A DNA stretch of 34,059 bases from an uncultured Burkholderiales bacterium (GCA_964598005.1 CAZRAL010000028.1:1-34059); one strand, 5' to 3'; positions 12,002 through 33,431 are shown, numbered from the stretch's first letter. The notes: generated by a model not told the origin, from the sequence alone. A program made the numbers and translations.

Positions 12002-12061
12002 ATGAAAGAGCGAGCCCTAAAAACTAATTTTAAACGCCCAGCCTTTTAACTACTAAAATTA

Positions 12062-13297: not shown

Positions 13298-13331
13298 GAA
13301 AAGTAATAAGGCTAAAAGATAAAACTAAAAA

Positions 13332-14963: not shown

Positions 14964-14968
14964 TAGCT

Positions 14969-17809: not shown

Positions 17810-18552
17810 AGGGTCTTAGGAAGCAAACATGTGATTGATACATGCTAACTTCTTGAGATGATTGAGAAAAACAGGTACCTCACACGTTCCAAAATCAGTG
17901 AGGCTAAGTTTCGACAGATTGTGCGCCATTTTTCTCTTGATTTGACCGCCAATGAATGCGCAGCATTGACGGGTATTTCCGTGCGTAGCATCAATTCGAT
18001 TTACCTGCGCATGCGTCAGCGTACGGTGACTTAGTGCACTGAGCATTCGCCTTTTTCTGGCGAGCGTGAAGCCGATGAGTCTTACTTTGGTGCTCGTCGT
18101 GTGCGTGGTAAACGGGGCCGTGGAGCGGCTGGCAAAACGATCGTCTTTGGTCTGCTCAAACGCGGCGATCATGTCTACACAGAGATCGTGCCTAATGCCT
18201 CCAAAGCCACGTTGCAAACCATTATTAGAGGTAAAGTTGACCCTCACATCCATACTGACAGCTGGCGTGGTTATGACGGGTGGGTCGATATTGGCTTTGA
18301 TAAGCATTTTCGGGTCAATCACGGCAACAATGAATTCGTCAAAGGCTCCAATCATGTCAACGGCATTGAGTCTTTCTGGAGTTTTGCCAAGCGCAGATTG
18401 GCCAAATTCAATGGTATTGCCAAACACACTTTTGCTTTGCATTTGAAAGAGTGTGAGTTCCGCTTCAACCATCGTCATGACAACCTCTATCTGGCCCTGC
18501 TAAGGTTATTTAGAAATAACCCTCTATAATCAAGTTTGCTTCCTAAGACCCT
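17810..18552 (+). mobile_element. IS1595-family (IS1016-group) insertion sequence, 743 bp, with perfect 19-bp terminal inverted repeats AGGGTCTTAGGAAGCAAAC
   Basis: 17810-17828 equals the reverse complement of 18534-18552. IRs extend imperfectly to about 27 bp. Flanked by AAAC on both sides (17806-17809 / 18553-18556). Encodes an IS1016-like transposase. Confidence 0.8.
17858..18529 (+). pseudogene. IS1016-like (IS1595 family) transposase interrupted by an in-frame TAG at 18032-18034
   Basis: N part 17858-18031 (MIEKNRYLTRSKISEAKFRQIVRHFSLDLTANECAALTGISVRSINSIYLRMRQRTVT*) and C part (..EHSPFSGEREADESYFGARRVRGKRGRGAAGKTIVFGLLKRG ... WRGYDG ... GIESFWSFAKRRLAKFNGI ... HLKECEFRFNHR) are in one frame (18032-17858 = 174 = 58x3). 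Matches IS1016 transposase from memory. Confidence 0.7.
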
Positions 18553-18559
18553 AAACGGT

Positions 18560-19327
18560 TTAGCTGGGCAGTAAAGCTTCTTTTCCTGCGCGGTTGGGGT
18601 AATTAATCAACACTGCACGATACTTACCCTTAAAAACAAAAAGGCTCCCAGCGGCAGCGCCAATAATACCGTAACGATTGATCAGTTCTTTTAAATCATC
18701 AAATGAACCTGCTCCGCCGAGCACAGTCAGTGGCAGATGAACCGCCTGCCGAACCAGCTCAACCAAGTCCAGGTCATAACCTTTCATCTTGCCATCCCGA
18801 TCCACCGAGTTGACCACTATCTCGCCTGCGCCTAACTCCGCCATTTGACGCGCGAATTCAACAGGATTAAGCCCTGTTCGGCGAGAACCATTGTGCGTTA
18901 CCACTTCGTAGCGACGAAGCAAACTCGTTTTCTTAATATCAATTACTACGACCACGCTCTGACTACCAACCCGCGAGGCAGCATCAGAAATGAGTTTCGG
19001 GTTCTCCACCGCCGCCGAACTGACGGCAACCTTTTCGACGCCAAGACTGATGATCTTCTCTATCTGCGCCACCGTACGTACGCCACCTCCATAACAAAGC
19101 GGCGCCCTGCATTCCGAGGCAAGGTGTGAAATCATCTGGTAGTCTGGTTCGGCACCCTTGACTGTAGCATCAATATCGACCACCACCAGTTCATCAACCT
19201 CTTTCTCATTGTAAATCCGAACCGCATTGATCGGATCCCCCACGTACTTCGGGTTGCCAAAATTAACGGTCTTGACGAGGCCGCTGTTGTGAACTAACAA
19301 ACAGGGTATCAGTCGGGGACGTAGCAT
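18560..19327 (-). CDS. wbuZ: HisF-like cyclase subunit (imidazole-glycerol-phosphate-synthase paralog; WbuZ-type)
   Basis: MLRPRLIPCLLV ... VDELVVVDIDA ... GGGVRT ... VSSAAVENP match the HisF (beta/alpha)8 signature. Start ATG 19327 overlaps the hisH-like stop. Confidence 0.75.
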   Translation of the reverse strand: MLRPRLIPCLLVHNSGLVKTVNFGNPKYVGDPINAVRIYNEKEVDELVVVDIDATVKGAEPDYQMISHLASECRAPLCYGGGVRTVAQIEKIISLGVEKVAVSSAAVENPKLISDAASRVGSQSVVVVIDIKKTSLLRRYEVVTHNGSRRTGLNPVEFARQMAELGAGEIVVNSVDRDGKMKGYDLDLVELVRQAVHLPLTVLGGAGSFDDLKELINRYGIIGAAAGSLFVFKGKYRAVLINYPNRAGKEALLPS

Positions 19328-19941
19328 CAGCCAAGCTCCGCGAAATTCTTCAACAGGCGGACACCCCACTGGTGGCTTTTTTCCGGATGGAATTGCGTTC
19401 CATATACATTTCTGGAGCGTACCGCTGAAGTGAATATCAAGCCATAGTTGGAAGTAGCCAGGATATTTTCTTCGTGGTCCGGTTTCATATAATAGGAATG
19501 CAAAAAATAGTAGCGGGGTGCGTCCAACCCAGAAAAAAGGCTGTCAGTTCTTAAGGGGGTCGCATCGTTCCACCCCATATGCGGAAGGTGGGTCTTGCCC
19601 TCAAGCAAACGGGTATCGAATTTGACGACCGTTGCATCAATCCACCCCAAACCCGGCAGCCTTCCCTCTTCACTAGAGCGAGCCATCATCTGCATACCCA
19701 CGCAAATGCCCAATACCGGTTTCCCCCCCCCAAGGACTTCTTCGTCCAGGGCTTCACGCAAGCCCGATTCCTGGAGACGGGTCATTGCCCAGTCAAATGC
19801 GCCGACGCCAGGAAGAATGATCCGGGAAGCCCTGTGTAAATCATTCTCGGTACGTGCCGCCCATGCCTCAATTCCGAGATGTCGATAAATATTGGCAAAA
19901 GCCTGAATGTTGCCTAGGCCATAATCAACCAGCGCAATCAT
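19327..19941 (-). CDS. wbuY: HisH-like class-I glutamine amidotransferase subunit (WbuY-type)
   Basis: MIALVDYGLGNIQAF ... LPGVGAF ... GICVGMQ (catalytic Cys) ... HLPHMGWN ... SYY. Confidence 0.8.
   Translation of the reverse strand: MIALVDYGLGNIQAFANIYRHLGIEAWAARTENDLHRASRIILPGVGAFDWAMTRLQESGLREALDEEVLGGGKPVLGICVGMQMMARSSEEGRLPGLGWIDATVVKFDTRLLEGKTHLPHMGWNDATPLRTDSLFSGLDAPRYYFLHSYYMKPDHEENILATSNYGLIFTSAVRSRNVYGTQFHPEKSHQWGVRLLKNFAELG
19723..19731. repeat. Homopolymeric C9 (G9 on the coding strand) inside the hisH-like gene, currently in frame (encodes GGG in EEVLGGGKPVL)
   Basis: Read directly: ggtttcccccccccaagg. Longest G/C homopolymer seen in the window. Confidence 0.9.
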
Positions 19942-21083
19942 CGCTTGCCGCCAATTTCCAGGCCCATAGCCCGCATTACCCGTGCGCCGTAATCATAAAG
20001 CTGCCGCTGATTTTTGTAATCCTTGTAGGTTTTGTGAGGTAGCTTCATGTAGCTGTTAAGCTCATCCACAGTGATGCCCAGCTTGTTCGCCACAAACTCG
20101 ATTTCCTGAGCAATCGTGGTTTCATCGTAACTAGGCTTCTTGAGGAGCTCGATGGCTTCTTCGCGGGCCATCTGCCCGGTAACAATCAGGCTGGAATACT
20201 GAATGCGGCGAACATCGTATCCAAACCGCTTAGGCAGCCAGTAACTCTCGTAGAATTTCGTAAAACGGGACTCGAAGTGCTTTTGTGAATAAGGCTGCCA
20301 CCCAAAACGATCAATCAAAAGCTGCTTGGCCTCTTCCTTGATGTAGGGCACCATATTCAGCGGGCGGACAACCTTGATACCTTTGAAATATGGCAGCCAC
20401 ACCTTATGCCACAGAATTGATGTCACTGGGAAGGTCTTGAGTGGCCGAGCGCCGAATTGGCGGTGAATATCTCGAAGTTGGCGCGAATCAGATTGGTAAT
20501 ACATCCACTCGATAGGATTGCGAATGCATTCAGTCGACAGATTCGCGCCGGTGAGGATGTATTTGACCTTATGCTGCGTCGCAAATTTGTACATTGTGGC
20601 GAAGAATGCATGATCCTGTGGCGTGTCAATGTGCGGAACGCCGGACTTAAAAAAAGCCAGCTGCAAATCACGCATCTCTTGCCAATCAATTACCTCGGTG
20701 AACAGATCGAGCCCTAGTCCATCGATCAGACGCTCGATGTTATTAACCGCAATTTGCGAGTTCCAGCCTGCATCGACATGGAACACCAGCGGACGCAACC
20801 CCATCTTTTCCTTTGCGATGTAAGTCAGATATGAGCTATCAATTCCGCCGCTCATGCCGATGATGCAGTCAAAATCCTTTCCTCTCCCATCATGTTTGAT
20901 AGCCTCAACTAAGCTGGCAAGCTTTGCTCCACCGCCAACTCCGGTATCCCAGCTAGGCAGAGTGACATTTTTGAAAGTGTTGCAGTGATCACAAACTCCC
21001 TGATCATCAAAAATAATCATTGAGTCCGTCGTGTCCATGACACACGAAGTGCAAATTTGGTAGTTGCGGTCAGTCATATGCAT
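19938..21083 (-). CDS. wbuX: N-acetyl sugar amidotransferase (PP-loop ATP pyrophosphatase; WbuX/PseA-like LPS biosynthesis protein)
   Basis: N-terminal Cys cluster (CTSC ... CDHC) and the GMSGGIDSS PP-loop. Co-located with hisH/hisF-like genes as in the wbuXYZ acetamidino-sugar modules. Confidence 0.75.
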   Translation of the reverse strand: MHMTDRNYQICTSCVMDTTDSMIIFDDQGVCDHCNTFKNVTLPSWDTGVGGGAKLASLVEAIKHDGRGKDFDCIIGMSGGIDSSYLTYIAKEKMGLRPLVFHVDAGWNSQIAVNNIERLIDGLGLDLFTEVIDWQEMRDLQLAFFKSGVPHIDTPQDHAFFATMYKFATQHKVKYILTGANLSTECIRNPIEWMYYQSDSRQLRDIHRQFGARPLKTFPVTSILWHKVWLPYFKGIKVVRPLNMVPYIKEEAKQLLIDRFGWQPYSQKHFESRFTKFYESYWLPKRFGYDVRRIQYSSLIVTGQMAREEAIELLKKPSYDETTIAQEIEFVANKLGITVDELNSYMKLPHKTYKDYKNQRQLYDYGARVMRAMGLEIGGKR

Positions 21084-22265
21084 CTAGCCATGAGTATGTT
21101 TGTAGGTGTCAGCGAGAAACGACCAGGTTTCCCGCGCACATCGTTCCCAAGAATAGCGGGTGGCCAGAATTTTGGCACGCAGGGCCAGCCGTCGCCGCAA
21201 ATCCGGATCGTCAATCAACTTGCGAAGTGCGTTGGCGATAGACTCGGGCACTTCGGGATCAAAATATTCGCCAGCATCTTCCAGAACCTCCGGCATAGGG
21301 CCGCGCCAAGAGCAGGCAATCGGCAATCCCGCAGCCATGGCCTCCACCAGCGTATTGGGCATGTTTTCACAACTGGAAGCGAACACAAAAATATCAGCCT
21401 CAGCCAGATAACCGGGCAAATCCGCCTGCGGAACAAATTTTTCTTGGGTTACAAATTCTCCTCGGAGGTCTGAAAGTGTCATTTGCTGGCGTAACTTCCG
21501 CTGTGCAGGGCCACTTCCGCCTCCAACCAAAGTCAAAGTGGCATTGATCCCCTCGATCCTCAACTGCTCAACCGCACGAATCACCATCCATTGGTGCTTG
21601 TACCAAGCGGCATTGGAAATGTAGAGGAATCTGATTGGTCGCTCTCCATTAACGGGCCAGGGCAACGTATGTGTTAATTCTTGGAAATTCTGGCCGACAC
21701 CGTGCGGAATAAACGCTACACGTCGAAGTGGACCACAAGATTGCTGAATCAGTCGTGCCGCGTGTTTAGTCAGGAACACCGCACCATCTGCCCGGCGCAA
21801 CGATCGATTCTGCACATAACGCAAGAGGACCAAGCGCAGCCGGGCCTTGCTCCACCCATACCGCTCAAGCTCGCCAGGTTCATACGACAGCATGTCACGA
21901 CTCATGGTTACCGATGGACTGACGCTGGACATCGTGCCCGCATCCGTATTGAGCATGATGTCGCAGCCGGCATCACGCACCTCTGCTGGAAGTTGAAAAA
22001 TCTGCCAGAGAACTTGTTGAACAAGAGATTTTTCTAACGCAGGCGGGTTATGCTTAATCAGCCACGATTGGTCAGGTACCGCATCCAGAAGCGATTTATA
22101 AGCCCAAAGATGGACTTGCCGAATACCGTGATCATGAGGATTGCCTCGCGCAATCAACCCGATCAAATGCGCTTTGGCACCGCCGGAGCGGTTTCTGGAT
22201 GCATCAACTCCGACAACAATACCTCCCGGAGTTGTTTTACTGATCTCTGGCATCATCAAATTCAT
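21084..22265 (-). CDS. Glycosyltransferase family 4 (GT-B, RfaG-like)
   Basis: C-terminal FVFASSCENMPNTLVEAMAAGLPIACS E-x7-E-type motif. Start overlaps the upstream stop (ATGA). Confidence 0.7.
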   Translation of the reverse strand: MNLMMPEISKTTPGGIVVGVDASRNRSGGAKAHLIGLIARGNPHDHGIRQVHLWAYKSLLDAVPDQSWLIKHNPPALEKSLVQQVLWQIFQLPAEVRDAGCDIMLNTDAGTMSSVSPSVTMSRDMLSYEPGELERYGWSKARLRLVLLRYVQNRSLRRADGAVFLTKHAARLIQQSCGPLRRVAFIPHGVGQNFQELTHTLPWPVNGERPIRFLYISNAAWYKHQWMVIRAVEQLRIEGINATLTLVGGGSGPAQRKLRQQMTLSDLRGEFVTQEKFVPQADLPGYLAEADIFVFASSCENMPNTLVEAMAAGLPIACSWRGPMPEVLEDAGEYFDPEVPESIANALRKLIDDPDLRRRLALRAKILATRYSWERCARETWSFLADTYKHTHG

Positions 22266-23263
22266 TGAGTTGGCTTACGTCCTCGAGTCACAAGATGACC
22301 AGCTTTGAGCACCTCAATTTGCTCTATCTGCGCCTGCTCCATGTAAGACCGCGCTGATTTATTAGTTTGCGGGCTGTCATACGTAGGAGGAAACCAGTCG
22401 AAGGTATCCAACAAGGTCCACTCTCTCAATTGTTTTTCGCTAGGCGGCAAGATCCCGTCATAGTTCGCCACGGGTATTGCGCACTTGAGGAGTTTGCCCA
22501 CTGCGAGGATTCGTCCAAGCGTGCAGCTTACAGGGAGTAAGATAGATACGATCGTTTCAAGCAGAGGAAATAACTTTTGTTTTGACATGTCCTTGGTAAA
22601 TGGACATAACCAGTATTTTGGAAGCAGAAGATTTTTAAAAGACTTTTCGTAATAATCGACACAAAGATATCCCCCTGCCCGCACAATCGGTGGAAGCACT
22701 GCAAAAGCCTTGGCTACATTTGGCGTACGTTGAAGTACCCCTAGGAAATAGACGAAGGAGAAAGTATCCGGGGCAAATGGCAAAGAATAAATATCGCCTT
22801 GAATTACATGCAGATTCGGATGGTGGCGCAGATTTGCGTAACAAGCATCCACGGCGCTAGAGTAATCCAGTGCCACAACCTGGGCACCGCTACTAAGGGC
22901 GACTTCTGCAAACCTACCGGATCCACAGCCTACGCCTTTATCCTTCATTTCTGCCGGATTCCACCCTGTGGCTTCCCAAAACCGATCAGCAGAAATGCTA
23001 TTTCCCGAATGACCATCGAGCTGAGTTTTCGCGAAGTAATTCCATTGCATACCAAAGTTGTCAGCATAGTTGGATTCCGGCACGAAGCGAGGAATGCCAT
23101 ATCGTATCGAATAGCGATGCTCACTAACTTTACTGATAAGCCAGCCATCCATAATCTCTACATCAGGGCTGGAATCTGACAGTGATGCCTCAGGCACCGT
23201 TTCTAGCACAAGGCTCTGCCCGCTTTGCGGACAACGTAGATGCTGAAGAAGAGCTAGTTTCAT
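22262..23263 (-). CDS. SAM-dependent methyltransferase with an N-terminal Trm112-like zinc-ribbon segment
   Basis: LLQHLRCPQSGQSL (Trm112p-like CP motif) and GVGCGSGRFAEVAL (motif I). Confidence 0.6.
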   Translation of the reverse strand: MKLALLQHLRCPQSGQSLVLETVPEASLSDSSPDVEIMDGWLISKVSEHRYSIRYGIPRFVPESNYADNFGMQWNYFAKTQLDGHSGNSISADRFWEATGWNPAEMKDKGVGCGSGRFAEVALSSGAQVVALDYSSAVDACYANLRHHPNLHVIQGDIYSLPFAPDTFSFVYFLGVLQRTPNVAKAFAVLPPIVRAGGYLCVDYYEKSFKNLLLPKYWLCPFTKDMSKQKLFPLLETIVSILLPVSCTLGRILAVGKLLKCAIPVANYDGILPPSEKQLREWTLLDTFDWFPPTYDSPQTNKSARSYMEQAQIEQIEVLKAGHLVTRGRKPTQ

Positions 23264-23299
23264 TGAAATAGTAATCTTTAAATGTACCCATTAAAACCA

Positions 23300-25162
23300 T
23301 TAAAGTCTAGCGCCATAAATTTTCCGCCACAACTCAAACTGCACCAGAGAAAACAAACGCTCTCCGTTGCTTCGCCCTTGATCCTGACCTTTCAGCAATG
23401 AATGTACCGTAGAGGTATCGAACAGGCAGTCTCGGCTCGACAAGGTATCCCAGAACAGTTCCCGGAACGGTCCGGCCTTGAGCCACTCAGCCAATGGAAT
23501 TGAGAAACCCTGCTTTCGCTGTGAATCAAACTCGGGCGGTAGCACCCGCGCAGCAAGCCGTTTAAGTAGTATTTTCCTTTTGCTGACTGTTGCTTTCAGA
23601 TGGGAAGGCACTTGCCCAAAGGCGAACTCGATGATCCGAAGGTCGAGCAACGGTGCCCGCACCTCCAAAGAATTAAGCATGCTGGCCCGATCTACCTTCA
23701 CCAGAATGTCTTCCGCTAAGTAGTCTTGGAAATCCATCCGCGTCGACCGCTGTAGCAAATCTGGTTGGCTTGGAACGCGACCTGCGCAGATGGCCTCGGC
23801 GACAATTGGGTGTCCCGGATGGCCTCGCATCAATCGACTGCGTGTAGTTGCATCGAAATAGTTGGCAATCAAGGGCAGACTGTGGCCTAAGTCCATGTCC
23901 AACCCTTGCAGGTAGTTTCTTCCCTTTAGACCGACTGGCAGCCATTGCTCGGCCACTGCCGAAACACTGTGTCGTAACCAGCTTGGAATATGCGCCAACT
24001 GCTGCTGCATCCACAGTAATCGGCTGTGATGTTTATAGCCACCAAACAGTTCATCGCCGCCATCACCGCCCAAGGCAACGCTGCAGTGCTGGCGTACCAG
24101 ACTACTGACTAGCCAAGTAGGAAACATGGAGGAATCCACCATGGGTTCATCGAACTGGCGCGCAAGAGTAGGCAACAGGTCGACGGTAGTGGGTTCAGCC
24201 ATCATTTCTATATGCTCGGTTCCAAAAAAGCGAGCAATCAGCCGTGCGTGTGGGGTTTCGTCCAGATTGCCGTGTCCAGGAAAACCGATGCTGAAAGTGC
24301 GTACTTGACGTGATCTGCGTACAGCCATAGCTGTGATCAGACTAGAATCGACCCCACCGCTTAGGAGAACACCTACTGGCACATCCGCTACCAACTGCCG
24401 ACCCACTGCATCTTCCAACAGGGACTCCAGTTCATCGAGCAGGGAGGCCTCATTGATTGCTCCCGCAACGGATTGCAACTCCGGCAACTGCCAATAGCGC
24501 CAGACCTTGGTCACACCCTGATGCAGATCAAAAGTCATGGCATGCGCCGGTGGCAGCTTGTGATAACCCAGCAGGATGCACCGATCTCCAGGGACAAAGC
24601 CCATGGTCAAGTAGCAGTCCATGGCCTCCGGGTCGATGCGCCTAGGCAAGCCTGGGTGTGCTAGCAGTGCCTTTAACTCCGAAGCATAGAAAAGCCTTCC
24701 GCGATCAAGTCGATAAAACAGCGGCTTCTCTCCCGTCCGATCACGGGCAAGAAAGAGTCGCTGGTGGCGAGTATCGTAAATGGCAAAGGCAAACATTCCA
24801 TTAAGATGCGAAAGGCAATCTGTACCCCACTCGGCGTAGGCAGCTAAAAGCACTTCGGTATCGCTGTGGGAACGAAATCCATGTCCGCAAAGTTCGAGTT
24901 CATTACGTAACTCAGCGAAGTTGTATATCTCACCATTAAAGACGATGACAATATTCCGAGAATAAAAATGCATAGGCTGATGCCCAAGTGGAGATAAATC
25001 CAAAATGGACAATCTACGATGAGCCATGCCCACACGGGAATCCTCGGACCACCACTCCCCGGCATCATCTGGGCCACGATGTTTCATGGTGTCGCGACCG
25101 ATGCGCAACCAAGAACGATTAGTTTGCCGGTCTATGGAAGCGACACCAACTATACCGCACAT
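23300..25162 (-). CDS. Asparagine synthetase B-like glutamine-dependent amidotransferase (WbpS-type), paralog 1
   Basis: MCGIVG N-terminal nucleophile Cys2. SGGVDSS PP-loop. About 620 aa. Start placed at MCGIVG (25162) rather than the track's 25195. Confidence 0.8.
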   Translation of the reverse strand: MCGIVGVASIDRQTNRSWLRIGRDTMKHRGPDDAGEWWSEDSRVGMAHRRLSILDLSPLGHQPMHFYSRNIVIVFNGEIYNFAELRNELELCGHGFRSHSDTEVLLAAYAEWGTDCLSHLNGMFAFAIYDTRHQRLFLARDRTGEKPLFYRLDRGRLFYASELKALLAHPGLPRRIDPEAMDCYLTMGFVPGDRCILLGYHKLPPAHAMTFDLHQGVTKVWRYWQLPELQSVAGAINEASLLDELESLLEDAVGRQLVADVPVGVLLSGGVDSSLITAMAVRRSRQVRTFSIGFPGHGNLDETPHARLIARFFGTEHIEMMAEPTTVDLLPTLARQFDEPMVDSSMFPTWLVSSLVRQHCSVALGGDGGDELFGGYKHHSRLLWMQQQLAHIPSWLRHSVSAVAEQWLPVGLKGRNYLQGLDMDLGHSLPLIANYFDATTRSRLMRGHPGHPIVAEAICAGRVPSQPDLLQRSTRMDFQDYLAEDILVKVDRASMLNSLEVRAPLLDLRIIEFAFGQVPSHLKATVSKRKILLKRLAARVLPPEFDSQRKQGFSIPLAEWLKAGPFRELFWDTLSSRDCLFDTSTVHSLLKGQDQGRSNGERLFSLVQFELWRKIYGARL

Positions 25163-25194
25163 ATTTTTTACAATTCTTAATTGGTCGGCTATCA

Positions 25195-26223
25195 CTACTC
25201 TTCAATCGCTTTACGAAAGCCTGCAATCATGCGATCGAGAGTTCGATTCCGCGAATATTGAATATATGCATTATGGCCTAATACCTGTACTAGACTTGGA
25301 TTGTTACAAACCCACTCAAGTGCAGTAGTTAGATCATTTTCACTTTCAAGAATAAGTGCATTGTGATTGTGATCCAAATTCATAAACTCAGGACCGTGGC
25401 GTCCTTCGCGCAAGGTTACAACAGGTACACCGTATGCAAAGCTGTGTAACACTCCGAGCCCAACTGGACCTGGGGATATATAAGCATATGCACGGGAGAA
25501 AAGGGTTGCTAACATGGCATGATCCTGAACTGAACCATGAAAAGTAATCTTCTGCGCAACGCCAAGTTCACTTGCAAGCTGTCGAAGCTCACCCTCAAGC
25601 ACACCTCCCCCTACAATATCAAGCACAATATGATCAGCGATACGTCCCTGTAATTCTAAGAATGTGCGAATGATTAAATCAATACGTTTTCTGGACTGCA
25701 ACCTCCCGACAAATAGCAAGCTGCATTTATCTGCATTACTCGTGTCGGAATGATTGGGAACGTGGATCGTATTTGGCGCTACGACGACCTTTGATAGATC
25801 AACCCCACGCTCGGACATGCGAGCAATCTCTTCTTCCCCATACAACAAAATTCGATCTGCCTTCTTCATTAAGAAATCACGAGTTCTATTAGCAAGCCCG
25901 TTAGCACTATAGCGATGACCCCACAAAATCCACTTAGCGTGGCGTTGTCCAACAAAGGGCAGAATATATGCAGGCCACCTCAGATCAAACATTGAGATTA
26001 CAGCGTCAAAATGCTGTCGTGCTTTATAGATCGAAGCAATATTTTGCAAATGAAACGGTCCAACTTTCACTTGTGGAATAATAATTTCAGCATAGTGGCT
26101 GAATATCGCCTCCCCCTCCTTGTTGGCATGCATTACTGTAACTAGATAATGCTTCGTCAATTCATTTATTACTGGGCGACGGTACTCTGTTAAGGCGTCT
26201 TGCAGGATCAAGATCGACTTCAT
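25195..26223 (-). CDS. Glycosyltransferase family 4, about 342 aa
   Basis: GT4 C-terminal domain (LLFVGRLQSRKRIDLI ... GVPVVTLREG). Start at MKSILIL (26223) with AAGGG 7 nt upstream preferred. Track ORF extends to 26331, overlapping the upstream gene. Confidence 0.65.
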   Translation of the reverse strand: MKSILILQDALTEYRRPVINELTKHYLVTVMHANKEGEAIFSHYAEIIIPQVKVGPFHLQNIASIYKARQHFDAVISMFDLRWPAYILPFVGQRHAKWILWGHRYSANGLANRTRDFLMKKADRILLYGEEEIARMSERGVDLSKVVVAPNTIHVPNHSDTSNADKCSLLFVGRLQSRKRIDLIIRTFLELQGRIADHIVLDIVGGGVLEGELRQLASELGVAQKITFHGSVQDHAMLATLFSRAYAYISPGPVGLGVLHSFAYGVPVVTLREGRHGPEFMNLDHNHNALILESENDLTTALEWVCNNPSLVQVLGHNAYIQYSRNRTLDRMIAGFRKAIEE

Positions 26224-26305
26224 TATGGAACCCTTACTTATCAGAATTCCAGATTGTGGCAGCGAGCATCGAATTGTGCATTTCAGATGAACGGTCTCAT
26301 AAAGT

Positions 26306-28228
26306 CTATGCTGTGTCACCTGAAGGTACATCTAGGAACCGCCTAAACCACAATTCCGTACTCAACAAGCGAAACAGCAGTGTGCTATGGTCTCGCTTGC
26401 CCTGACGGTGCGTATCAATGAGTCTTCGCAGGCCAGACTTATCAAATAGTCCACGCTCAAGACTGCGTGTGCTCAGAAGAATATCGACTGCACTTTTGGC
26501 TCCTGTAAACTTCTTGCGGAATTGTGATGTAATCGGTGAGTTGAAACCGAATTTGGTACGGTTATAAAGAATCCAATCGGGCACAAGTCCACACATTGCT
26601 TGTCTGTGGATATATTTGCCTACTCCAAGCTTGATTTTGAAATCACTAGGCAGACTCCATACAAATTCGACCAGCCGGTGATCCAAGAATGGCATACGCG
26701 ACTCAATGCTGTTCGCCATTGAAATGGCATCACCATAATGCAAAAGATTCACCAGACCACCAGAATGTTGACGCCGTAGCGTTTCCGTAACCCACCCTTT
26801 ATCTTCCTCATCTGGCAGTGGCGGATAGTCGCGCATTCGGTCATAGTCACGTAGTGCAGGGCCAAAGGCCTCTGACACTCCTGTCAATTGCTGGTATAGC
26901 ATGGATAACCAAGGAAGGCGATTACTCGCCCCACGTAGCGCCATAAATACACTGTAACGAAGCTTATAGGTTTTGCTATATTCCTCAACTGATGCAAAAG
27001 CTTCTCGGTATCTCCCAGCAGCAATCAGGTCACCGAAACTTTGCCAGATTATGTTGGCGACATAGCCGCCAAGAAGTTCGTCGGCACCTTGCCCTTCAAG
27101 CAACACTGTCACGTGCTTTCGTGCTTTTCTGAGCAGCTGCATCAATGGAAAGACAGCAGGCGAACTGTTCCCACTCTCCAGATGCCAGACGATATGTGAG
27201 AGCTGATTGACAAACTCTGAATAGTCAGTATCGACGACATGTGAGTGGAGCTTTAGTTCATGCGCTACGCGACAAACAGAAGTCGACTCATCAATCGTGT
27301 TGCCGGCCTCAACATATATCGAACGGTTCTGAATGAGTCCCTCTTCCGATGAGAAACGTGATGTGAAGCAATGATGCGGTGCAGGATCAATGTGTTGCAT
27401 CGCATAAACGATCGAGGAAGAATCAAGGCCAGAAGAAAGCGTAACACCTAGCGGTACATCGCTGCGCATCCGAATGTATACAGCATCATGGAACAGTCTC
27501 GCATATTCTTGACGCGCATCTTCGAATGATAGATTTTTAATTATCTGCTGTGGATAATGCCAATAACGTGAAATGTAGATTTTGCCACTACGAATCGAAA
27601 GATTATGCCCAGGCTGAAGACGTTTGACCTTCTTAAACCAAGTTTCGGGGTGTTGCGCGCCAACTGAAGTCCTGCAAAAATTAGAAATTATGTTGTAGTC
27701 AGGTTCTGCGAGTTGGGGAGCATAGGCCAAGATTGCCTTGATTTCTGATGCGAAATAGAACTTCCCGTCGAGCAAAGCATAGTTAAAAGGCTTCTCGCCA
27801 TAACGATCACGGGAGCAAAATAGCGTTCGCTCCAGTCGGTCGTAAATCGCGAAGCCCCACATGCCATTGAAGCGCTGCACACATGCTTCTCCCCAGCGTA
27901 TGTAGGCCTGGAGCAGAACTTCTGCATCACCTAAGGTGTGAAAGGCCACACCAGCGGCAATTAGTTCAGAGCGAAGCTCTAAGTAATTAAATATTTCACC
28001 GTTGAAGACAAGCCAGTAGCGATTATGCGCGATGATCGGCTGGTTGCTGGCATCACTAAGGTCTATAATAGATAATCGAGTGTGGCCGAATAACGCATCG
28101 TTTCCAACTTGCTTCCAGGCCTGTGCATCGGGGCCGCGATGCTTAAGTGCTTCCAGCGCTCGTTTGACTCGACGTTCGTCAAATGATCCAACTCCATCTA
28201 TATTTATAATTCCAAAAATTCCGCACAT
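26306..28228 (-). CDS. Asparagine synthetase B-like glutamine-dependent amidotransferase (WbpS-type), paralog 2, 640 aa
   Basis: MCGIFGI N-terminus. SSGLDSS PP-loop. AsnB C-terminal domain. Confidence 0.85.
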   Translation of the reverse strand: MCGIFGIINIDGVGSFDERRVKRALEALKHRGPDAQAWKQVGNDALFGHTRLSIIDLSDASNQPIIAHNRYWLVFNGEIFNYLELRSELIAAGVAFHTLGDAEVLLQAYIRWGEACVQRFNGMWGFAIYDRLERTLFCSRDRYGEKPFNYALLDGKFYFASEIKAILAYAPQLAEPDYNIISNFCRTSVGAQHPETWFKKVKRLQPGHNLSIRSGKIYISRYWHYPQQIIKNLSFEDARQEYARLFHDAVYIRMRSDVPLGVTLSSGLDSSSIVYAMQHIDPAPHHCFTSRFSSEEGLIQNRSIYVEAGNTIDESTSVCRVAHELKLHSHVVDTDYSEFVNQLSHIVWHLESGNSSPAVFPLMQLLRKARKHVTVLLEGQGADELLGGYVANIIWQSFGDLIAAGRYREAFASVEEYSKTYKLRYSVFMALRGASNRLPWLSMLYQQLTGVSEAFGPALRDYDRMRDYPPLPDEEDKGWVTETLRRQHSGGLVNLLHYGDAISMANSIESRMPFLDHRLVEFVWSLPSDFKIKLGVGKYIHRQAMCGLVPDWILYNRTKFGFNSPITSQFRKKFTGAKSAVDILLSTRSLERGLFDKSGLRRLIDTHRQGKRDHSTLLFRLLSTELWFRRFLDVPSGDTA

Positions 28229-28245
28229 AGCATTGAATCTCGATT

Positions 28246-29094
28246 TTAGGATGCGGGCTTGCGTAGGATCAGTGCAAGCGAAGCTGGGCCGAATCGTTCG
28301 ATAAGATTAGTGCGGTGATATTTTGTATTGAAGGCAAAAAGCAAAGATAATAGCCGATCAACACGGGTGGCTAAAGGGTTGGTGAAGGCAGGTGTTCCCA
28401 ATTCGGCCATGACCCGAGTAAAGGGCGCGAAATCGAAAAAGGCGGAATGATCTATCCGGAAGCCTACATTGATTACTATCATTTTCAAAAGTCTATAAGG
28501 AATGCCACGCTCATTTTTAGTTAATCCTCGCCGTGGGTACCGCCAGTCCCCTTGGGTCACTATTGGTTCACGGATTAACATGCAACCTCCAGGGGCGAGA
28601 CAGCGATGGAATTCGCGCAGCACCGTTGAGACATTTGCAATATGGTGCAATGCCCCCATTGAAGTTGCCAACTGGAAATGGTTGTCTGGAAAATCCAGCT
28701 TCCCATTGAGGGCAGGTTTTCGATATTCCAAAGGGGTTCCGTTCAAGACTTTATGTTCGGAAAATTTGTCCGATGGCTCGATAATCGTGATCTTGCTCAG
28801 CTGGTCGGCGATGGGAATGAATTCGTCGCCATACGCACTGCCAAGACCGATTGCATGGGCTCCTTGCGGAATATTCACATGCTTAAAGAGATGAAATAGA
28901 TTCAATTCATGATAATGATACCGATAAACGTCTTGCTGAGATAAAACCACCCCTGAGTACCCTTCTTTTTCTTCCTCATACCATACGTGAAGTTGCTCTT
29001 CTGTGAAATCATCTCCGTACAATCGATTTCCCAAAAAGAATTCCTCGATTGAAATGGATTTCGATGTTGTATCTTTCAATGGATTTAATCTCAT
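28246..29094 (-). CDS. Class I SAM-dependent methyltransferase
   Basis: GLGSAYGDE (motif I region), DNHFQL, and GGCMLIREP (motif III). Confidence 0.55.
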   Translation of the reverse strand: MRLNPLKDTTSKSISIEEFFLGNRLYGDDFTEEQLHVWYEEEKEGYSGVVLSQQDVYRYHYHELNLFHLFKHVNIPQGAHAIGLGSAYGDEFIPIADQLSKITIIEPSDKFSEHKVLNGTPLEYRKPALNGKLDFPDNHFQLATSMGALHHIANVSTVLREFHRCLAPGGCMLIREPIVTQGDWRYPRRGLTKNERGIPYRLLKMIVINVGFRIDHSAFFDFAPFTRVMAELGTPAFTNPLATRVDRLLSLLFAFNTKYHRTNLIERFGPASLALILRKPAS

Positions 29095-29101
29095 CTTGAG
29101 C

Positions 29102-30367
29102 CTAGATAATAATTTTGCGCCAATTATGGCGAAGGAAAATTACCAACAGTAGTGCAAATTGAAGTAAATAGCTAATTCCGATCGCCCACACACAACCGTG
29201 AAGTCCATATAAAGGAATGAGTGCAAACAACATGACGACTGACAGTACGGCAGACATCGCATTACCAATCAATATAGACCTGCTGCTACCATGTGCTAAC
29301 AGAATCCCATTCAAAACGGCGATGACATTAAAAATGGAAATTACAATGCCAATACTAAATAAATAGTCACTCACAATTGCGTATTTCTCAGAAAGAAGCA
29401 CAGCAGTAATCAGGTCGCCGAGGGCATAAAATAAAGCTGCGCCTATAAAAGATAAAGAGATAATACTGAAGAGCCAAATAAATTTGATGCGTCCAGCTTC
29501 GTGTGAGTTATTCTTGGCGATTGCTTCAACATAGGCCGGCAGCATTGTCACATAACCAATATCGGACAGCATGCCGAAAGGGCGTTTCACCAATCCATAA
29601 GCTGCAACGAAAGCCCCCGCGTGGTGCAAGCTGAGCATTGCCGTGATAATATAGCGACTGCTCATCTCTGAAACATTCGCAAAAATGTTTGACGGAACAA
29701 TAGGCCAAGCAATTTGCAATATTTCTTTGCTTATTTTCTCACGGGCATCGCGGTCTATTGAACTAGCGCCCAGACTGGCACTGGAACGAGTCATTACTAG
29801 TAATGAAGTCAGCACAATCAGTGCGCCAAATAAATTACCAGCAACAGCAACATAGGCAGATGTTCCAAGGCCTTCCAGGAACAGCCACAAAAATATAAGC
29901 CGAATACTCACATCACCAACGCTAACCATGGCTACCGAGTGCTGATTTCGGCCAGCAGCGAGTAGCGTTTGCTCAAAGCATCTTCTCGCGTCGATAACAA
30001 ACAATCCAGTGACTAATAACGGCGTAGACCAATGTAGATCGAGCAAATGACATACAGGGACGCCAATCAGAACAATTGCAAAGACGCACATTACGGCGGC
30101 TCTTGTGATAACAGCCAAGCATACGACTCTGAACTCCTTTTCCTTCCCGGCCTCAGCATAAATGGAATATCGAACAAGCATTGCCCGTACGACTGGATCA
30201 ACCACAATTCCTGCAAGAATCGATGCGGTTGAAATGATAATTGCCATGAGTCCTAATTCAGCCGGCGTTAGATAAACAGCCCATACTTTGAGTGTGAGAA
30301 GTGCTACAGCAACATTTATGACTTGGCCTGCTGAGGCCCATGATACTTCTCGAAATAGCTGTTTCAT
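29102..30367 (-). CDS. wzx: Wzx-type polysaccharide flippase (MOP superfamily polysaccharide biosynthesis protein)
   Basis: 421 aa with about 12 predicted TM helices and typical RfbX-like hydropathy. Sits inside the glycan cluster next to a polymerase-like gene. Confidence 0.6.
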   Translation of the reverse strand: MKQLFREVSWASAGQVINVAVALLTLKVWAVYLTPAELGLMAIIISTASILAGIVVDPVVRAMLVRYSIYAEAGKEKEFRVVCLAVITRAAVMCVFAIVLIGVPVCHLLDLHWSTPLLVTGLFVIDARRCFEQTLLAAGRNQHSVAMVSVGDVSIRLIFLWLFLEGLGTSAYVAVAGNLFGALIVLTSLLVMTRSSASLGASSIDRDAREKISKEILQIAWPIVPSNIFANVSEMSSRYIITAMLSLHHAGAFVAAYGLVKRPFGMLSDIGYVTMLPAYVEAIAKNNSHEAGRIKFIWLFSIISLSFIGAALFYALGDLITAVLLSEKYAIVSDYLFSIGIVISIFNVIAVLNGILLAHGSSRSILIGNAMSAVLSVVMLFALIPLYGLHGCVWAIGISYLLQFALLLVIFLRHNWRKIII

Positions 30368-31883: not shown

Positions 31884-32779
31884 GCGACCTGTTTTTCCTG
31901 AGACTGCACTGGCGACTTGTAACCGAGGCTCGAATGCCGCTTCTTGCGGTTGTAAAAAACCTCAATATACTCGAAGCTGGCGGCCTTTATGTCGGCATGA
32001 GTGGCATAGCGAATTCCATGTATCCACTCGTTCTTCAAGCTATTAAACCAGCTCTCCGTCGGCGCATTATCCCAACAGTTGCCTTTCCGACTCATCGAGC
32101 AAGTCATGCCATAGGCCTTGAGCTTATCCTGAAAGGCATGAATGGCGTACTGGCTACCCCGGTCAGAATGGTGCATCAGCCCCGCTATCGGCCGTTTCCT
32201 GAACCAGGCTATAGTTAGCGTATCGATCACGAGGTCCGCTGTCATGTGCGGTTTCAGCGACCAGCCGACTATTTCGCAGTTGAACAGGTCAAGCACGATA
32301 GCCAGATACAGCCAGCCTTCATCGGTCCACAGGTAGGTTATGTCCGATTCCCAGACCTGATTCGGCACCGACGGCGTGAAGTTCCTGTCCAGCAGGTTCT
32401 CCGCCACCGGCAGGCCATATTTCGAGTCCGTCGTCATTTGGTAGCGCCGCTTGTGGCAGGCACGAATGCTGTTGTCGCGCATCAATCGCTCAACCCGTTC
32501 CTTTGCCGGTCGGATATACCCGGCCACGCAGCTCGCACACCATACGCGGGCTGTCGTAAGCGCCTTTGACTTCGCTATGAATGGATTCGATCAGCGCCAG
32601 CATTTGCTGGTCAGAGAGTCGCTTGCGATTAGGTGTGCCACCACGCATCCATGTACGATAACCACTGATGCTGACATTGAGCACGTCACACATTTCAGCT
32701 AGCGAGTATGATTGGCTTTGCTCGGCAATCTAGGCGTACCTCACAGTACACCTCTTGCAAAGTACGCCGTCGCTTTTTT
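31880..32779 (-). pseudogene. IS3-family transposase OrfB, frame-disrupted beyond the programmed -1 site
   Basis: Three frames are needed: -1 frame from the slippery site stops after 11 codons (ATAYFARGVL*); N-terminal OrfB segment IAEQSQSYSLAEMCDVLNVSISGY ... ELRGR lies in the +1 frame (32729-32490); DDE core (RVERLMR ... VWESDITY ... HSDRGSQY ... NAPTESWF) lies in the -1 frame (32527-31880). Confidence 0.65.
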
Positions 32780-33361: not shown

Positions 33362-33431
33362 CATCAAAATGTGAAGTTGAAGTCACCCCCATTTCACGGA
33401 CACCTTATTGTTCTTTCAGAAGGAGTCCGAA

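What the first reader, a model, noticed from the sequence alone, without database searches (positions are those of the whole stretch)
18560..29094. Three separate amidotransferase systems plus three methyltransferases in one glycan locus
Within about 10 kb the locus encodes a WbuX/WbuY/WbuZ trio (N-acetyl-sugar amidotransferase with HisH/HisF paralogs, which elsewhere make acetimidoylamino sugars). It also encodes two full-length AsnB-like amidotransferases (23300-25162 and 26306-28228) separated by a single GT4. The paralogs are clearly divergent rather than recent duplicates, and WbpS-type enzymes amidate uronic acids. Add three class-I SAM methyltransferases, one with a Trm112-like zinc ribbon. 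Upstream lie a TviB/WbpO-type UDP-GlcNAc 6-dehydrogenase and a 4-epimerase. The predicted product is a highly decorated polymer of 2-acetamido uronic acids or uronamides carrying acetamidino and methyl groups. Two AsnB-like enzymes bracketing one glycosyltransferase may act on two different uronic acid residues, or one may act as a non-catalytic partner.
Basis: inference. Interest (0 to 1): 0.6.

Follow-up and report, generated by a model that had tools for sequence, protein, structure and literature searches.

The report
Surface-sugar operon with three amidotransferase systems
This is a real but fairly ordinary gene cluster for building a decorated bacterial surface polysaccharide. Its two asparagine-synthetase-like enzymes and its acetamidino-forming trio are separate, widely shared modules that have been seen together in other bacteria.

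Summary
One minus-strand operon (about 31883 to 7232) encodes a Wzy-like polymerase, Wzx, MT1, AsnB-1, GT4a, AsnB-2, MT2 with a Trm112-like N-terminus, GT4b and WbuX/HisH/HisF2. It continues with a two-domain oxidoreductase, MT3, a heparinase II/III-like protein, GT4c, WecB, a uronate-type 4-epimerase, a TviB-like dehydrogenase and a WecA-like initiator.

Both AsnB-like proteins start with MCGI and carry a PP-loop. They keep 142/142 and 133/134 of their families' invariant residues. dN/dS is about 0.1.

They are only 30% identical and belong to separate old clades. Each clade has its own conserved neighbours and usually occurs alone, so a heterodimer or a dead partner is unlikely. Neither is a housekeeping AsnB: the residue matching E. 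coli Glu348 is Gln in AsnB-1 and Asp in AsnB-2.

The same cassette recurs at 62-92% identity in other metagenomes. Multiple amidotransferases in one glycan locus are already published for Bordetella wbm and Sphingomonas LM7.

New details:
- An IS1595 element splits the operon.
- MT2 has lost three residues of its SAM motif I.
- MT2 relatives are often fused to glycosyltransferases.

Verdict: a new member of a known kind, of modest interest.

The parts
30423..31883 (-). Wzy-like repeat-unit polymerase, a multi-pass membrane protein
   Evidence: TIGR04370 35 bits, just under the cutoff of 40. Orthologs at 72-78% identity occupy the same position in L002 and L092.
29102..30367 (-). Wzx flippase
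   Evidence: PF01943 36.7 bits against a cutoff of 28.2.
28246..29094 (-). MT1, a class I SAM methyltransferase
   Evidence: Methyltransf_11 3.3e-11. MT1 homologs lie within about 3 kb of AsnB-1 orthologs in L002, L013, L015, L016 and L021.
26306..28228 (-). AsnB-1, a glutamine-dependent AsnB-like amidotransferase of the Gln type
   Evidence: Starts MCGI. PP-loop is SSGLDSS. The motif EGQGADE places Gln380 at the position of E. coli Glu348. It keeps 142/142 family-invariant residues. dN/dS is 0.108.
25195..26223 (-). GT4a glycosyltransferase, lying between the two AsnB genes
   Evidence: Glycos_transf_1 7.8e-17. The same gene is called at 342 aa in L090. It is conserved next to AsnB-1 orthologs in L002, L092, L010, L014 and L028.
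23300..25162 (-). AsnB-2, a glutamine-dependent AsnB-like amidotransferase of the Asp type, closest to the family that holds WbpS
   Evidence: TIGR03108 508 bits over its full length, below the cutoff of 817. Starts MCGI, has SGGVDSS and GGDGGDE. Asp sits at the Glu348 position in 80/80 orthologs. It keeps 133/134 invariant residues.
22262..23263 (-). MT2: a Trm112-like N-terminal domain plus a class I methyltransferase, possibly damaged
   Evidence: It has a 3-residue deletion in SAM motif I and differs at 10 of 115 ortholog-invariant positions, against 0-5 in controls. The sequence is identical in two other assemblies. Family members are fused to GT4, GT2 or Bac_transf domains.
21084..22265 (-). 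GT4b glycosyltransferase, the partner of MT2
   Evidence: Glycos_transf_1 1.3e-23. It overlaps MT2 by 4 bp. A GT4b homolog lies within 3.5 kb downstream of AsnB-2 orthologs in 20 of 37 loci.
19938..21083 (-). [quoted passage not shown]
   Evidence: TIGR03573 311 bits against a cutoff of 203. The SGGIDSS motif is present.
19327..19941 (-). HisH-like glutaminase subunit (WbuY)
   Evidence: TIGR01855 218 bits and PF00117. The motifs GICVGMQ and FHPE are present.
18560..19327 (-). HisF2/WbuZ/AglZ-type subunit
   Evidence: NF038364 382 bits against a cutoff of 310.
17810..18552 (+). IS1595-family insertion in the spacer between wbuZ and the oxidoreductase gene; its transposase gene is broken by a stop codon
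   Evidence: 22-nt terminal inverted repeats. DDE_Tnp_IS1595 5e-21. Matches IS1595 transposases on plasmids. Absent from L002, where the spacer is 14 bp.
15679..17802 (-). Two-domain oxidoreductase (ADH_zinc_N plus Gfo/Idh/MocA)
   Evidence: It directly follows WbuX-HisH-HisF in L002, L016, L017, L078 and L092.
14969..15682 (-). MT3, a class I methyltransferase, probably added recently
   Evidence: Methyltransf_11 8e-18. It lies in the lowest-GC kilobase of the window, 0.394. No MT3 homolog was found in L002 or L092.
13332..14963 (-). Heparinase II/III-like protein of unknown role in synthesis
   Evidence: PF07940 1.9e-54. Best solved structures are heparinase III.
12062..13297 (-). GT4c, a WcaI-family glycosyltransferase
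   Evidence: NF007640 179 bits, below its cutoff of 276.
10892..12001 (-). Non-hydrolysing UDP-GlcNAc 2-epimerase (WecB family)
   Evidence: TIGR00236 307 bits against a cutoff of 210.
9783..10790 (-). SDR 4-epimerase of the UDP-uronate (Gla/Uge) type
   Evidence: It is paired with TviB-like genes in L004, L006, L008, L010, L130, L156 and L166.
8322..9608 (-). TviB/WbpO-like UDP-HexNAc 6-dehydrogenase
   Evidence: NF011729 462 bits, below the cutoff of 592. WecC-type models score only about 192 bits.
7232..8317 (-). WecA/WbpL-like initiating HexNAc-1-P transferase
   Evidence: PF00953 119 bits. TIGR02380 258 bits, below the cutoff of 326.
31880..33030 (-). Degraded IS3-family element abutting the wzy start; it marks the upstream edge of the cassette
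   Evidence: HTH_Tnp_1 and rve domains lie in separate, truncated frames.

Best explanation
The window carries a Wzx/Wzy-dependent heteropolysaccharide operon (O-antigen or exopolysaccharide). The organism is uncultured and probably a betaproteobacterium. The operon is assembled from mobile sugar-modification modules.

Sugar supply (inferred from family membership):
- The TviB-like dehydrogenase and the uronate-type 4-epimerase make UDP-GlcNAcA and UDP-GalNAcA.
- WecB makes UDP-ManNAc.

Assembly (inferred): the WecA-like enzyme starts the unit on undecaprenyl phosphate, and three GT4 enzymes extend it.

AsnB-1 and AsnB-2 (inferred): these are two independent, catalytically competent glutamine amidotransferases.
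- The Cys1 glutaminase domain releases ammonia.
- The PP-loop domain adenylates a sugar carboxylate.
- The product is a primary uronamide, as shown genetically for WbpS, WbqG and PGN_1234.
- Each acts on a different residue or substrate together with its own conserved neighbours: AsnB-1 with MT1 and GT4a, AsnB-2 with MT2 and GT4b.

WbuX/HisH/HisF2 (inferred): the trio converts an acetamido group to an acetamidino group. The sugar is most likely the one made by the adjacent block of two-domain oxidoreductase, heparinase-like protein and WecB, and transferred by GT4c.

MT2 (inferred): it is a glycan methyltransferase that works with GT4b.

What is shown here: gene content, motifs, conservation and synteny. 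All chemistry is inferred.
For: Both AsnB paralogs look catalytically intact:
- Both have the MCG start, the Arg/Asn/Asp glutaminase residues and a PP-loop.
- Both keep their family invariants, 142/142 and 133/134.
- dN/dS against the L002 orthologs is 0.108 and 0.089.

They are separate clades at 30% identity.

Each has its own conserved context:
- AsnB-1 orthologs at about 60% identity sit directly beside TviB-like and epimerase genes in L004, L006 and L010.
- AsnB-2 orthologs are followed immediately by MT2 in 24 of 56 loci and by GT4b in 20 of 37.
- MT2-family proteins are fused to GT4, GT2 or Bac_transf domains and never to AsnB.

WbuX-HisH-HisF is followed directly by the two-domain oxidoreductase in five independent loci.

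The whole cassette recurs in L002/L003 and L092.

Genetic evidence that AsnB-like WbpS, WbqG and PGN_1234 make uronamides is given in PMC7468200.
Against: - There is no biochemical evidence for either clade.
- Both score below the TIGR03108 equivalog cutoff, 508 and 355 bits against 817.
- Glu348, which by my recollection of E. coli AsnB mutagenesis controls acyl-adenylate formation, is replaced by Gln or Asp.
- Only 5 of 26 AsnB-2 loci with at least 12 kb of flank show a TviB-like dehydrogenase. This is weak evidence, because in the window itself that gene lies about 14 kb from AsnB-2, beyond a 10-kb flank.
- One amidotransferase serves two GalNAcAN residues in Francisella (from memory), so two enzymes are not strictly needed.
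- The IS1595 insertion and the MT2 motif I deletion may mean the pathway is partly inactive in this strain.
Confidence: 0.6

Rival explanations
1. One or both AsnB-like enzymes do something other than make a uronamide. Examples are amidating a carboxylate on a non-uronic substituent, or adenylating an amide oxygen to make an amidine, as other PP-loop enzymes do.
For: The Glu348 position is Gln or Asp, and Glu appears in only 2 of 104 glycan-locus AsnB-likes. L009/L097 carries an AsnB-2 ortholog with no NDP-sugar 6-dehydrogenase within 10 kb on either side, in a locus that appears to make 6-deoxy sugars. The best solved-structure relative is the hydroxyamidotransferase 7YLZ, which shows that the fold supports varied chemistry.
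Against: The locus does encode a TviB-like dehydrogenase and a uronate 4-epimerase. AsnB-1 orthologs lie next to such genes. TIGR03108, which according to PMC7468200 includes WbpS and WbqG, is the top model for AsnB-2. Acetamidino formation is already covered by WbuX/HisH/HisF.
Confidence: 0.2
2. The two AsnB-like proteins work as a heterodimer, or one is a non-catalytic partner of the other.
For: The two genes lie close together, with only one GT4 between them. E. coli AsnB is a dimer (from memory).
Against: Both keep every catalytic motif and essentially all family-invariant residues. Both are under purifying selection. In the scan seeded on AsnB-1-like proteins, 71 of 80 genome loci lack a second AsnB-like gene within 10 kb. 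In the AsnB-2 scan, 16 of 26 loci with long flanks lack one, and where a second copy is present it usually belongs to yet another clade with Ala, Thr or Asp at the Glu348 position.
Confidence: 0.05
3. The locus is decaying and no longer makes the full decorated polymer in this organism.
For: - An IS1595 element sits 7 bp upstream of the oxidoreductase start codon, ahead of all downstream genes including TviB, the epimerase and WecA.
- MT2 has a motif I deletion and 10 substitutions at invariant positions.
- A neighbouring GtrB-like GT2 gene has an in-frame stop.
- IS3 and rve fragments lie at 6730-7050, 31880-33030 and 33408-34043.
Against: All the other open reading frames are intact. Both AsnB genes, and MT2 as a whole, show strong purifying selection. 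An IS element can supply an outward-reading promoter. The MT2 allele is identical in three assemblies, so it is fixed in the population and not an assembly error.
Confidence: 0.15

Closest known systems
WbpS (P. aeruginosa O6), WbqG (E. coli O121) and PGN_1234 (P. gingivalis): AsnB-like uronic acid amidotransferases
   Same: They share the two-domain AsnB-like architecture with an N-terminal Cys glutaminase and a PP-loop synthetase. They are encoded in glycan loci alongside a UDP-HexNAc 6-dehydrogenase and a 4-epimerase. TIGR03108 is the best-scoring model for AsnB-2.
   Different: Both window proteins score below the TIGR03108 cutoff. AsnB-1 belongs to a distinct clade with a Gln-type motif and an SSG PP-loop. 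I could not obtain the sequences of the characterised enzymes, so no direct phylogeny was made.
Bordetella bronchiseptica wbm O-antigen locus (wbmC, wbmI, wbmZ)
   Same: Several glutamine-dependent amidotransferase genes lie in one O-antigen locus that makes uronamide residues (PMC2615507).
   Different: That polymer is a homopolymer of L-GalNAc3NAcA(N). It is also deamidated in the periplasm by WbmE, and no WbmE equivalent was seen here. Which wbm gene does the amidation is itself unresolved.
Sphingomonas sp. LM7 cluster B (cell-associated polysaccharide)
   Same: One locus holds an exosortase-associated AsnB-like amidotransferase, WbuX, AglZ/HisF2 and HisH, a nucleotide-sugar dehydrogenase, GT4 enzymes and Wzy (PMC11340318). 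AsnB-1's nearest named relatives are sphingomonads at 60% identity.
   Different: That locus has one AsnB-like gene and the full WbpB/E/D-type set (MviM dehydrogenase, aminotransferase, acetyltransferase). The window lacks those genes.
WbpG/HisH/HisF (P. aeruginosa O5), WbuXYZ (E. coli O145), AglXYZ (Methanococcus maripaludis), PseA, and Legionella NASAT (PDB 8WEX)
   Same: WbuX and HisF2 pass their NCBIfam cutoffs, and the three genes are contiguous. The family makes acetamidino sugars (PMC10607449, plus general knowledge).
   Different: The substrate here is unknown. There are no FnlABC genes, no WbpB/E/D genes and no nonulosonic-acid genes in the window. Instead the trio is linked to a block of two-domain oxidoreductase, heparinase-like protein and WecB.
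E. coli asparagine synthetase B (PDB 1CT9)
   Same: Same fold, the same Cys1, Arg, Asn and Asp glutaminase residues, and a PP-loop.
   Different: NF006949 scores are 227 and 261 bits against a cutoff of 499. Glu348 is replaced by Gln or Asp. The genomic context is a glycan locus, not housekeeping genes.

Membership tests
AsnB-like class II glutamine amidotransferase (PF13537 plus PF00733) | N-terminal Cys nucleophile directly after the initiator Met | tested here: met
   MCGIFG in AsnB-1 and MCGIVG in AsnB-2. Cys2 is invariant across alignment A1.
AsnB-like class II glutamine amidotransferase (PF13537 plus PF00733) | PP-loop ATP pyrophosphatase motif SGGxDS | tested here: met
   AsnB-2 has SGGVDSS. 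AsnB-1 has the variant SSGLDSS, which is shared by its close clade.
Uronic acid amidotransferase WbpS/WbqG (TIGR03108, eps_aminotran_1) | Score above the curated equivalog cutoff of 816.9 bits | tested here: not met
   AsnB-2 scores 508 bits over its full length. AsnB-1 scores 355 bits in two stretches.
Uronic acid amidotransferase WbpS/WbqG (TIGR03108, eps_aminotran_1) | Encoded with a UDP-HexNAc 6-dehydrogenase and a 4-epimerase in a glycan locus | tested here: met
   The TviB-like gene is at 8322-9608 and the epimerase at 9783-10790, in the same operon. The same pairing is seen for orthologs in L004, L006, L008, L010, L130 and L156.
Uronic acid amidotransferase WbpS/WbqG (TIGR03108, eps_aminotran_1) | Converts a uronic acid residue to a uronamide | not testable with these tools
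   This needs an enzyme assay or the glycan structure.
Housekeeping asparagine synthetase B | Score above the NF006949 cutoff of 499 bits | tested here: not met
   227 and 261 bits. Both proteins do pass the broader TIGR01536 model, with 410 and 462 bits against 267.
Housekeeping asparagine synthetase B | Glutamate at the position of E. coli Glu348 in the SGEGSDE motif | tested here: not met
   AsnB-1 has EGQGADE, so Gln. AsnB-2 has GGDGGDE, so Asp.
WbuX/WbuY/WbuZ acetamidino system | WbuX-family PP-loop amidotransferase above the TIGR03573 cutoff | tested here: met
   311 bits against 203.
WbuX/WbuY/WbuZ acetamidino system | HisF2/AglZ-type subunit above its cutoff, with an adjacent HisH-like glutaminase | tested here: met
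   NF038364 382 bits against 310, TIGR03572 301.2 against 299.7, and HisH TIGR01855 218 bits. The genes are contiguous and overlapping.
WbuX/WbuY/WbuZ acetamidino system | The product carries an acetamidino group | not testable with these tools
   This needs NMR or mass spectrometry of the glycan.
Wzx/Wzy-dependent polysaccharide locus | Flippase, polymerase and a polyprenyl-phosphate initiating transferase | tested here: inconclusive
   Wzx passes the Pfam threshold. The Wzy-like protein scores 35 bits against a cutoff of 40. The WecA-like protein passes PF00953 but is below the TIGR02380 cutoff. There is no Wzz in the window, although one is present in L002.
Trm112-like domain fused to a class I methyltransferase (MT2) | Trm112p-like N-terminal domain | tested here: inconclusive
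   In the window protein NF038101 scores 26 bits against a cutoff of 77, Pfam gives no hit, and there is only one Cys. Pfam PF03966 passes its threshold in family members P0381 and P0433.
Trm112-like domain fused to a class I methyltransferase (MT2) | Intact SAM-binding motif I (hh[D/E]hGxGxG) | tested here: not met
   Orthologs read W(V/I)LD(V/I/A)GCG, whereas the window reads K---GVGCG: three residues are missing and the Asp is replaced by Gly.

The most novel reading that the evidence does not exclude
Two of the modules may encode sugar chemistry that has not yet been described.

The first is AsnB-2 with MT2 and GT4b. It is conserved at 65-87% identity from betaproteobacteria to a cyanobacterium.

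The second is the block WbuX-HisH-HisF, two-domain oxidoreductase, heparinase-like protein and WecB.

In this reading, the glycan-locus AsnB-likes that carry Gln or Asp in place of Glu348 would not simply make UDP-uronamides. They might act on lipid-linked intermediates together with their partner glycosyltransferase, or form a different nitrogen-containing group. The heparinase-like protein might act as a C5-epimerase that makes an L-configured acetamidino-uronic acid.
Probability: 0.12. Interest if true: 0.55.

Novelty: new member of a known kind. Interest (0 to 1): 0.27.

Why it matters
If the model is right, this organism displays a polymer in which acidic sugars are neutralised to amides, or made cationic with amidino groups, and are also methylated. 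Such changes alter surface charge, phage and antibody recognition, and resistance to cationic peptides.

The wider value lies in the modules rather than in this one locus. AsnB-2 with MT2 and GT4b, and WbuXYZ with the two-domain oxidoreductase, are widespread, highly conserved, horizontally shared and biochemically uncharacterised.

The systematic loss of Glu348 in glycan-locus AsnB-likes gives a simple sequence marker. It separates sugar amidotransferases from true asparagine synthetases, which annotation pipelines currently give the same name.

Tried and rejected
- **Housekeeping AsnB.** Rejected on the NF006949 scores, the residue at the Glu348 position and the synteny of orthologs.
- **Heterodimer or dead partner.** Rejected as the main reading on motif integrity, leave-one-out conservation, dN/dS and the fact that each clade mostly occurs alone.
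- **Direct comparison with E. coli O121 wbqG or O145 wbuX.** A distant-mode DNA search of the E. coli genomes with the AsnB-2 gene found nothing.
- **Organism name.** The cluster look-up returned no names. The genome scan's best hit was only 60% identical. The flanking slipin/SPFH protein is 80-82% identical to proteins from betaproteobacterial MAGs.
- **Literature on the oxidoreductase and heparinase-like block.** Four searches gave nothing relevant, and two further attempts failed on syntax.
- **Solved structures.** Searches for MT1, MT2, the heparinase-like protein and the oxidoreductase gave only generic relatives.
- **The 220-aa minus-strand ORF at 17816-18478.** Rejected as a gene. It is the antisense strand of an IS1595 element.
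- **A nonulosonic acid as the WbuX substrate.** NeuB co-occurs with WbuX only in L002/L003, whereas the two-domain oxidoreductase follows the trio in five independent loci. This idea is kept only as a minor possibility.

Full report
**Observation**

ORF listing and HMM scans show one long minus-strand operon running from about 31883 down to 7232. In the direction of transcription the genes are:

| Coordinates | Gene |
|---|---|
| 30423-31883 | Wzy-like polymerase |
| 29102-30367 | Wzx |
| 28246-29094 | MT1 |
| 26306-28228 | AsnB-1 |
| 25195-26223 | GT4a |
| 23300-25162 | AsnB-2 |
| 22262-23263 | MT2 (Trm112-like N-terminus plus class I methyltransferase) |
| 21084-22265 | GT4b |
| 19938-21083 | WbuX |
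| 19327-19941 | HisH |
| 18560-19327 | HisF2/WbuZ |
| 17810-18552 | IS1595 element (plus strand) |
| 15679-17802 | two-domain ADH/Gfo-Idh-MocA oxidoreductase |
| 14969-15682 | MT3 |
| 13332-14963 | heparinase II/III-like protein |
| 12062-13297 | GT4c, WcaI family |
| 10892-12001 | WecB |
| 9783-10790 | SDR 4-epimerase |
| 8322-9608 | TviB-like dehydrogenase |
| 7232-8317 | WecA-like initiator |

Scores are far beyond chance. WbuX scores 311 bits against a cutoff of 203, HisF2 scores 382 against 310, and the Asn_synthase domain gives 1e-70 and 3e-83.

The corrections are minor:
- The third methyltransferase lies outside the stated span.
- The dehydrogenase and epimerase are downstream, not upstream.
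- The epimerase is of the uronate (Gla/Uge) type rather than the WbpP/TviC type.
- The Trm112-like domain has one cysteine, so it is not a zinc-binding ribbon.

**Are both AsnB-like proteins catalytic, and is either a housekeeping enzyme?**

The two are 30% identical.

Both begin with MCGI. Alignment to E. coli AsnB (1CT9) and to the hydroxyamidotransferase 7YLZ shows the glutaminase Arg, Asn and Asp residues and a PP-loop. The PP-loop is SGGVDSS in AsnB-2 and SSGLDSS in AsnB-1.

At the position of E. coli Glu348 (motif SGEGSDE), AsnB-1 has Gln (EGQGADE) and AsnB-2 has Asp (GGDGGDE). This is a property of the families, not decay:
- Gln is invariant in 32 AsnB-1 relatives.
- Gln is present in 86 of 104 AsnB-like proteins from the loci held after the genome scan.
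- Asp is present in 80 of 80 AsnB-2 orthologs.
- Glu appears in only 2 of 104.

From my memory of the E. coli AsnB literature, Glu348 governs formation of the aspartyl adenylate. Its replacement therefore fits a substrate that is not aspartate.

In leave-one-out tests, the window's AsnB-1 keeps 142 of 142 family-invariant positions. AsnB-2 keeps 133 of 134, the one change being Phe to Tyr. dN/dS against the L002 orthologs is 0.108 and 0.089.

The housekeeping AsnB model NF006949 gives 227 and 261 bits against a cutoff of 499. TIGR03108 is the top hit for AsnB-2 at 508 bits, below its cutoff of 817. According to PMC7468200, TIGR03108 is the family that includes WbpS and WbqG.

So both proteins look like active enzymes, and neither is a canonical asparagine synthetase.

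**Context elsewhere**

The same cassette occurs in two other places:
- L002/L003 carry it at 57-86% protein identity.
- L092 carries it in the order TviB, epimerase, Wzy, Wzx, AsnB-1 (62%), GT4a, AsnB-2 (84%), MT2, GT4b, WbuX (92%), HisH, HisF, oxidoreductase, WecB, heparinase-like.

AsnB-1 orthologs at about 60% identity sit directly next to TviB-like and epimerase genes in a Sphingopyxis genome, a Sphingomonas MAG and a 3-Mb metagenomic genome.

AsnB-2 is unusually conserved. It is 72-77% identical to proteins from Candidatus Symbiobacter mobilis, Spirulina subsalsa, Pseudohongiella and others.

In 80 metagenomic loci seeded on AsnB-2:
- An MT2 homolog lies immediately downstream in 24 of 56 loci with enough sequence.
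- A GT4b homolog lies within 3.5 kb in 20 of 37.
- A second AsnB-like gene is present in 10 of 26 loci with at least 12 kb of flank.
- WbuX is present in 2 of 26.

In 80 genome loci seeded on AsnB-1:
- 9 carry a second AsnB-like gene.
- 6 carry the WbuX trio.
- One, a Melioribacter MAG (L017), carries both.

Each clade therefore usually works alone, and having two AsnB-like genes in one locus is common. This argues against an obligate heterodimer.

**The methyltransferases**

A HMMER search of 1.8 billion representative proteins with MT2 found several long relatives. Pfam shows these are fusions:
- MT2 fused to GT4: four proteins, in the same order as the overlapping MT2 and GT4b genes here.
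- GT4 fused to MT2: two proteins.
- GT2 fused to MT2: one protein.
- MT2 fused to Bac_transf: one protein.
- None is fused to AsnB.

MT2 is therefore best read as a glycan methyltransferase that works with a glycosyltransferase.

In this window, however, MT2 has lost three residues of SAM motif I. Orthologs read W(V/I)LD(V/I/A)GCG and the window reads K---GVGCG. It also differs at 10 of 115 positions that are invariant in orthologs, against 0-5 in controls. The allele is identical in two other assemblies. MT2 may be inactive here.

MT1 homologs recur near AsnB-1 orthologs. MT3 lies in the lowest-GC kilobase of the window and is absent from L002 and L092, so it was probably added recently.

**The WbuX trio**

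WbuX-HisH-HisF is followed directly by the two-domain oxidoreductase in five independent loci from different phyla. NeuB co-occurs with WbuX only in L002/L003.

The acetamidino sugar is therefore more likely a product of the oxidoreductase, heparinase-like and WecB block, transferred by the WcaI-family GT4c, than a nonulosonic acid. The chemistry of that block is unknown. Solved-structure relatives are only generic dehydrogenases and heparinase III.

**Signs of mobility and decay**

- A 743-bp IS1595-family element with 22-nt inverted repeats sits in what is a 14-bp spacer in L002. Its transposase gene is broken by a stop codon. It lies 7 bp from the oxidoreductase start codon.
- A degraded IS3 element abuts the wzy start. 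Further IS fragments lie at 6730-7050 and 33408-34043.
- A neighbouring GtrB-like GT2 gene has an in-frame stop.

**Mechanism**

- Shown here: gene content, motifs, conservation, synteny and domain fusions.
- Inferred from family knowledge: TviB-like dehydrogenase plus 4-epimerase give UDP-GlcNAcA and UDP-GalNAcA. The two AsnB-like enzymes each hydrolyse glutamine at Cys1, adenylate a sugar carboxylate and form a primary amide on different residues. WbuX/HisH/HisF2 converts an acetamido group to an acetamidino group. The methyltransferases add methyl groups. WecA-like enzyme, three GT4s, Wzx and Wzy assemble and polymerise a unit of about four sugars.
- Confidence in this model is about 0.6.

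**Comparison with known systems, and novelty**

- The Bordetella bronchiseptica wbm locus already has three glutamine-dependent amidotransferase genes for a uronamide polymer (PMC2615507).
- Sphingomonas LM7 cluster B has an AsnB-like amidotransferase together with WbuX, HisF2 and HisH (PMC11340318).
- WbpS, WbqG and PGN_1234 link AsnB-like proteins to uronamides genetically (PMC7468200).

The finding is therefore a correct and careful annotation of a new member of a known kind. It is not a new system.

The more interesting by-products are three:
- the conserved and uncharacterised AsnB-2/MT2/GT4b module;
- the conserved and uncharacterised block of WbuXYZ with the two-domain oxidoreductase;
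- the Glu348 marker that separates sugar amidotransferases from true asparagine synthetases.

The organism is an uncultured bacterium, probably a betaproteobacterium. The flanking slipin protein is 80-82% identical to proteins from betaproteobacterial MAGs.

Noticed in passing
window 17810-18552: An IS1595-family element has inserted between wbuZ and the oxidoreductase gene. It is 743 bp long, has 22-nt inverted repeats, and its transposase gene is interrupted by a stop at 18032-18034. The 220-aa minus-strand ORF at 17816-18478 is its antisense strand, not a gene. The insertion may be polar on all downstream genes.
   Followed up: yes
window 22262-23263 (MT2), about residues 105-112: A 3-residue in-frame deletion removes part of SAM motif I, and the motif's Asp is replaced by Gly. 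The protein also has 10 substitutions at positions that are invariant in orthologs. The allele is identical in three assemblies, so this methyltransferase may be inactive.
   Followed up: yes
proteins P0380, P0381, P0433, P0450, P0396, P0445, P0505 and P0435 (relatives of MT2): MT2-family methyltransferases are repeatedly fused to GT4, GT2 or Bac_transf glycosyltransferase domains. This is domain-fusion evidence that the family methylates glycans together with a transferase.
   Followed up: yes
AsnB-like proteins in loci L001-L171; window residues Gln380 (AsnB-1) and the Asp of GGDGGDE (AsnB-2): AsnB-like proteins from glycan loci almost never keep the glutamate matching E. coli AsnB Glu348. 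It is Gln in 86 of 104, Asp in 80 of 80 AsnB-2 orthologs, and Ala, Thr, Leu or Val in others. This could serve as a marker to separate them from true asparagine synthetases, which annotation pipelines name identically.
   Followed up: partly
window 10892-17802 and 18560-21083; also L002, L016, L017, L078, L092: The gene order WbuX-HisH-HisF followed directly by the two-domain ADH/Gfo-Idh-MocA oxidoreductase is conserved across phyla, and a heparinase II/III-like gene and/or WecB follows in several of these loci. No literature on its chemistry was found. The heparinase-like protein might be a C5-epimerase, but that is speculation.
   Followed up: partly
window 3599-6593: A gtr-like set lies beside the operon: a 561-aa multi-pass membrane protein with no Pfam hit (4908-6593), a GtrB-like GT2 gene (about 3973-4900) interrupted by an in-frame stop at 4564-4566, and a GtrA-family protein (about 3599-3960).
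   Followed up: partly
window 31880-33030, 33408-34043 and 6730-7050: Degraded IS3-family pieces (HTH_Tnp_1, HTH_21, rve and rve_3 fragments) flank the glycan operon. In relative L002 a different IS, of the DDE_Tnp_1 type, sits at the same place just upstream of wzy. This suggests a junction where cassettes are exchanged.
   Followed up: partly
window 14969-15682 (MT3): This methyltransferase lies in the lowest-GC kilobase of the window (0.394). No MT3 homolog was found in L002 or L092, which otherwise share the gene order, so it was probably acquired recently.
   Followed up: partly
AsnB-2 orthologs, for example P0129 and P0144: AsnB-2 is 72-77% identical to proteins from a betaproteobacterium, a cyanobacterium (Spirulina subsalsa) and gammaproteobacteria. 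That is far more conserved than its neighbouring genes, which implies strong constraint and horizontal spread.
   Followed up: partly
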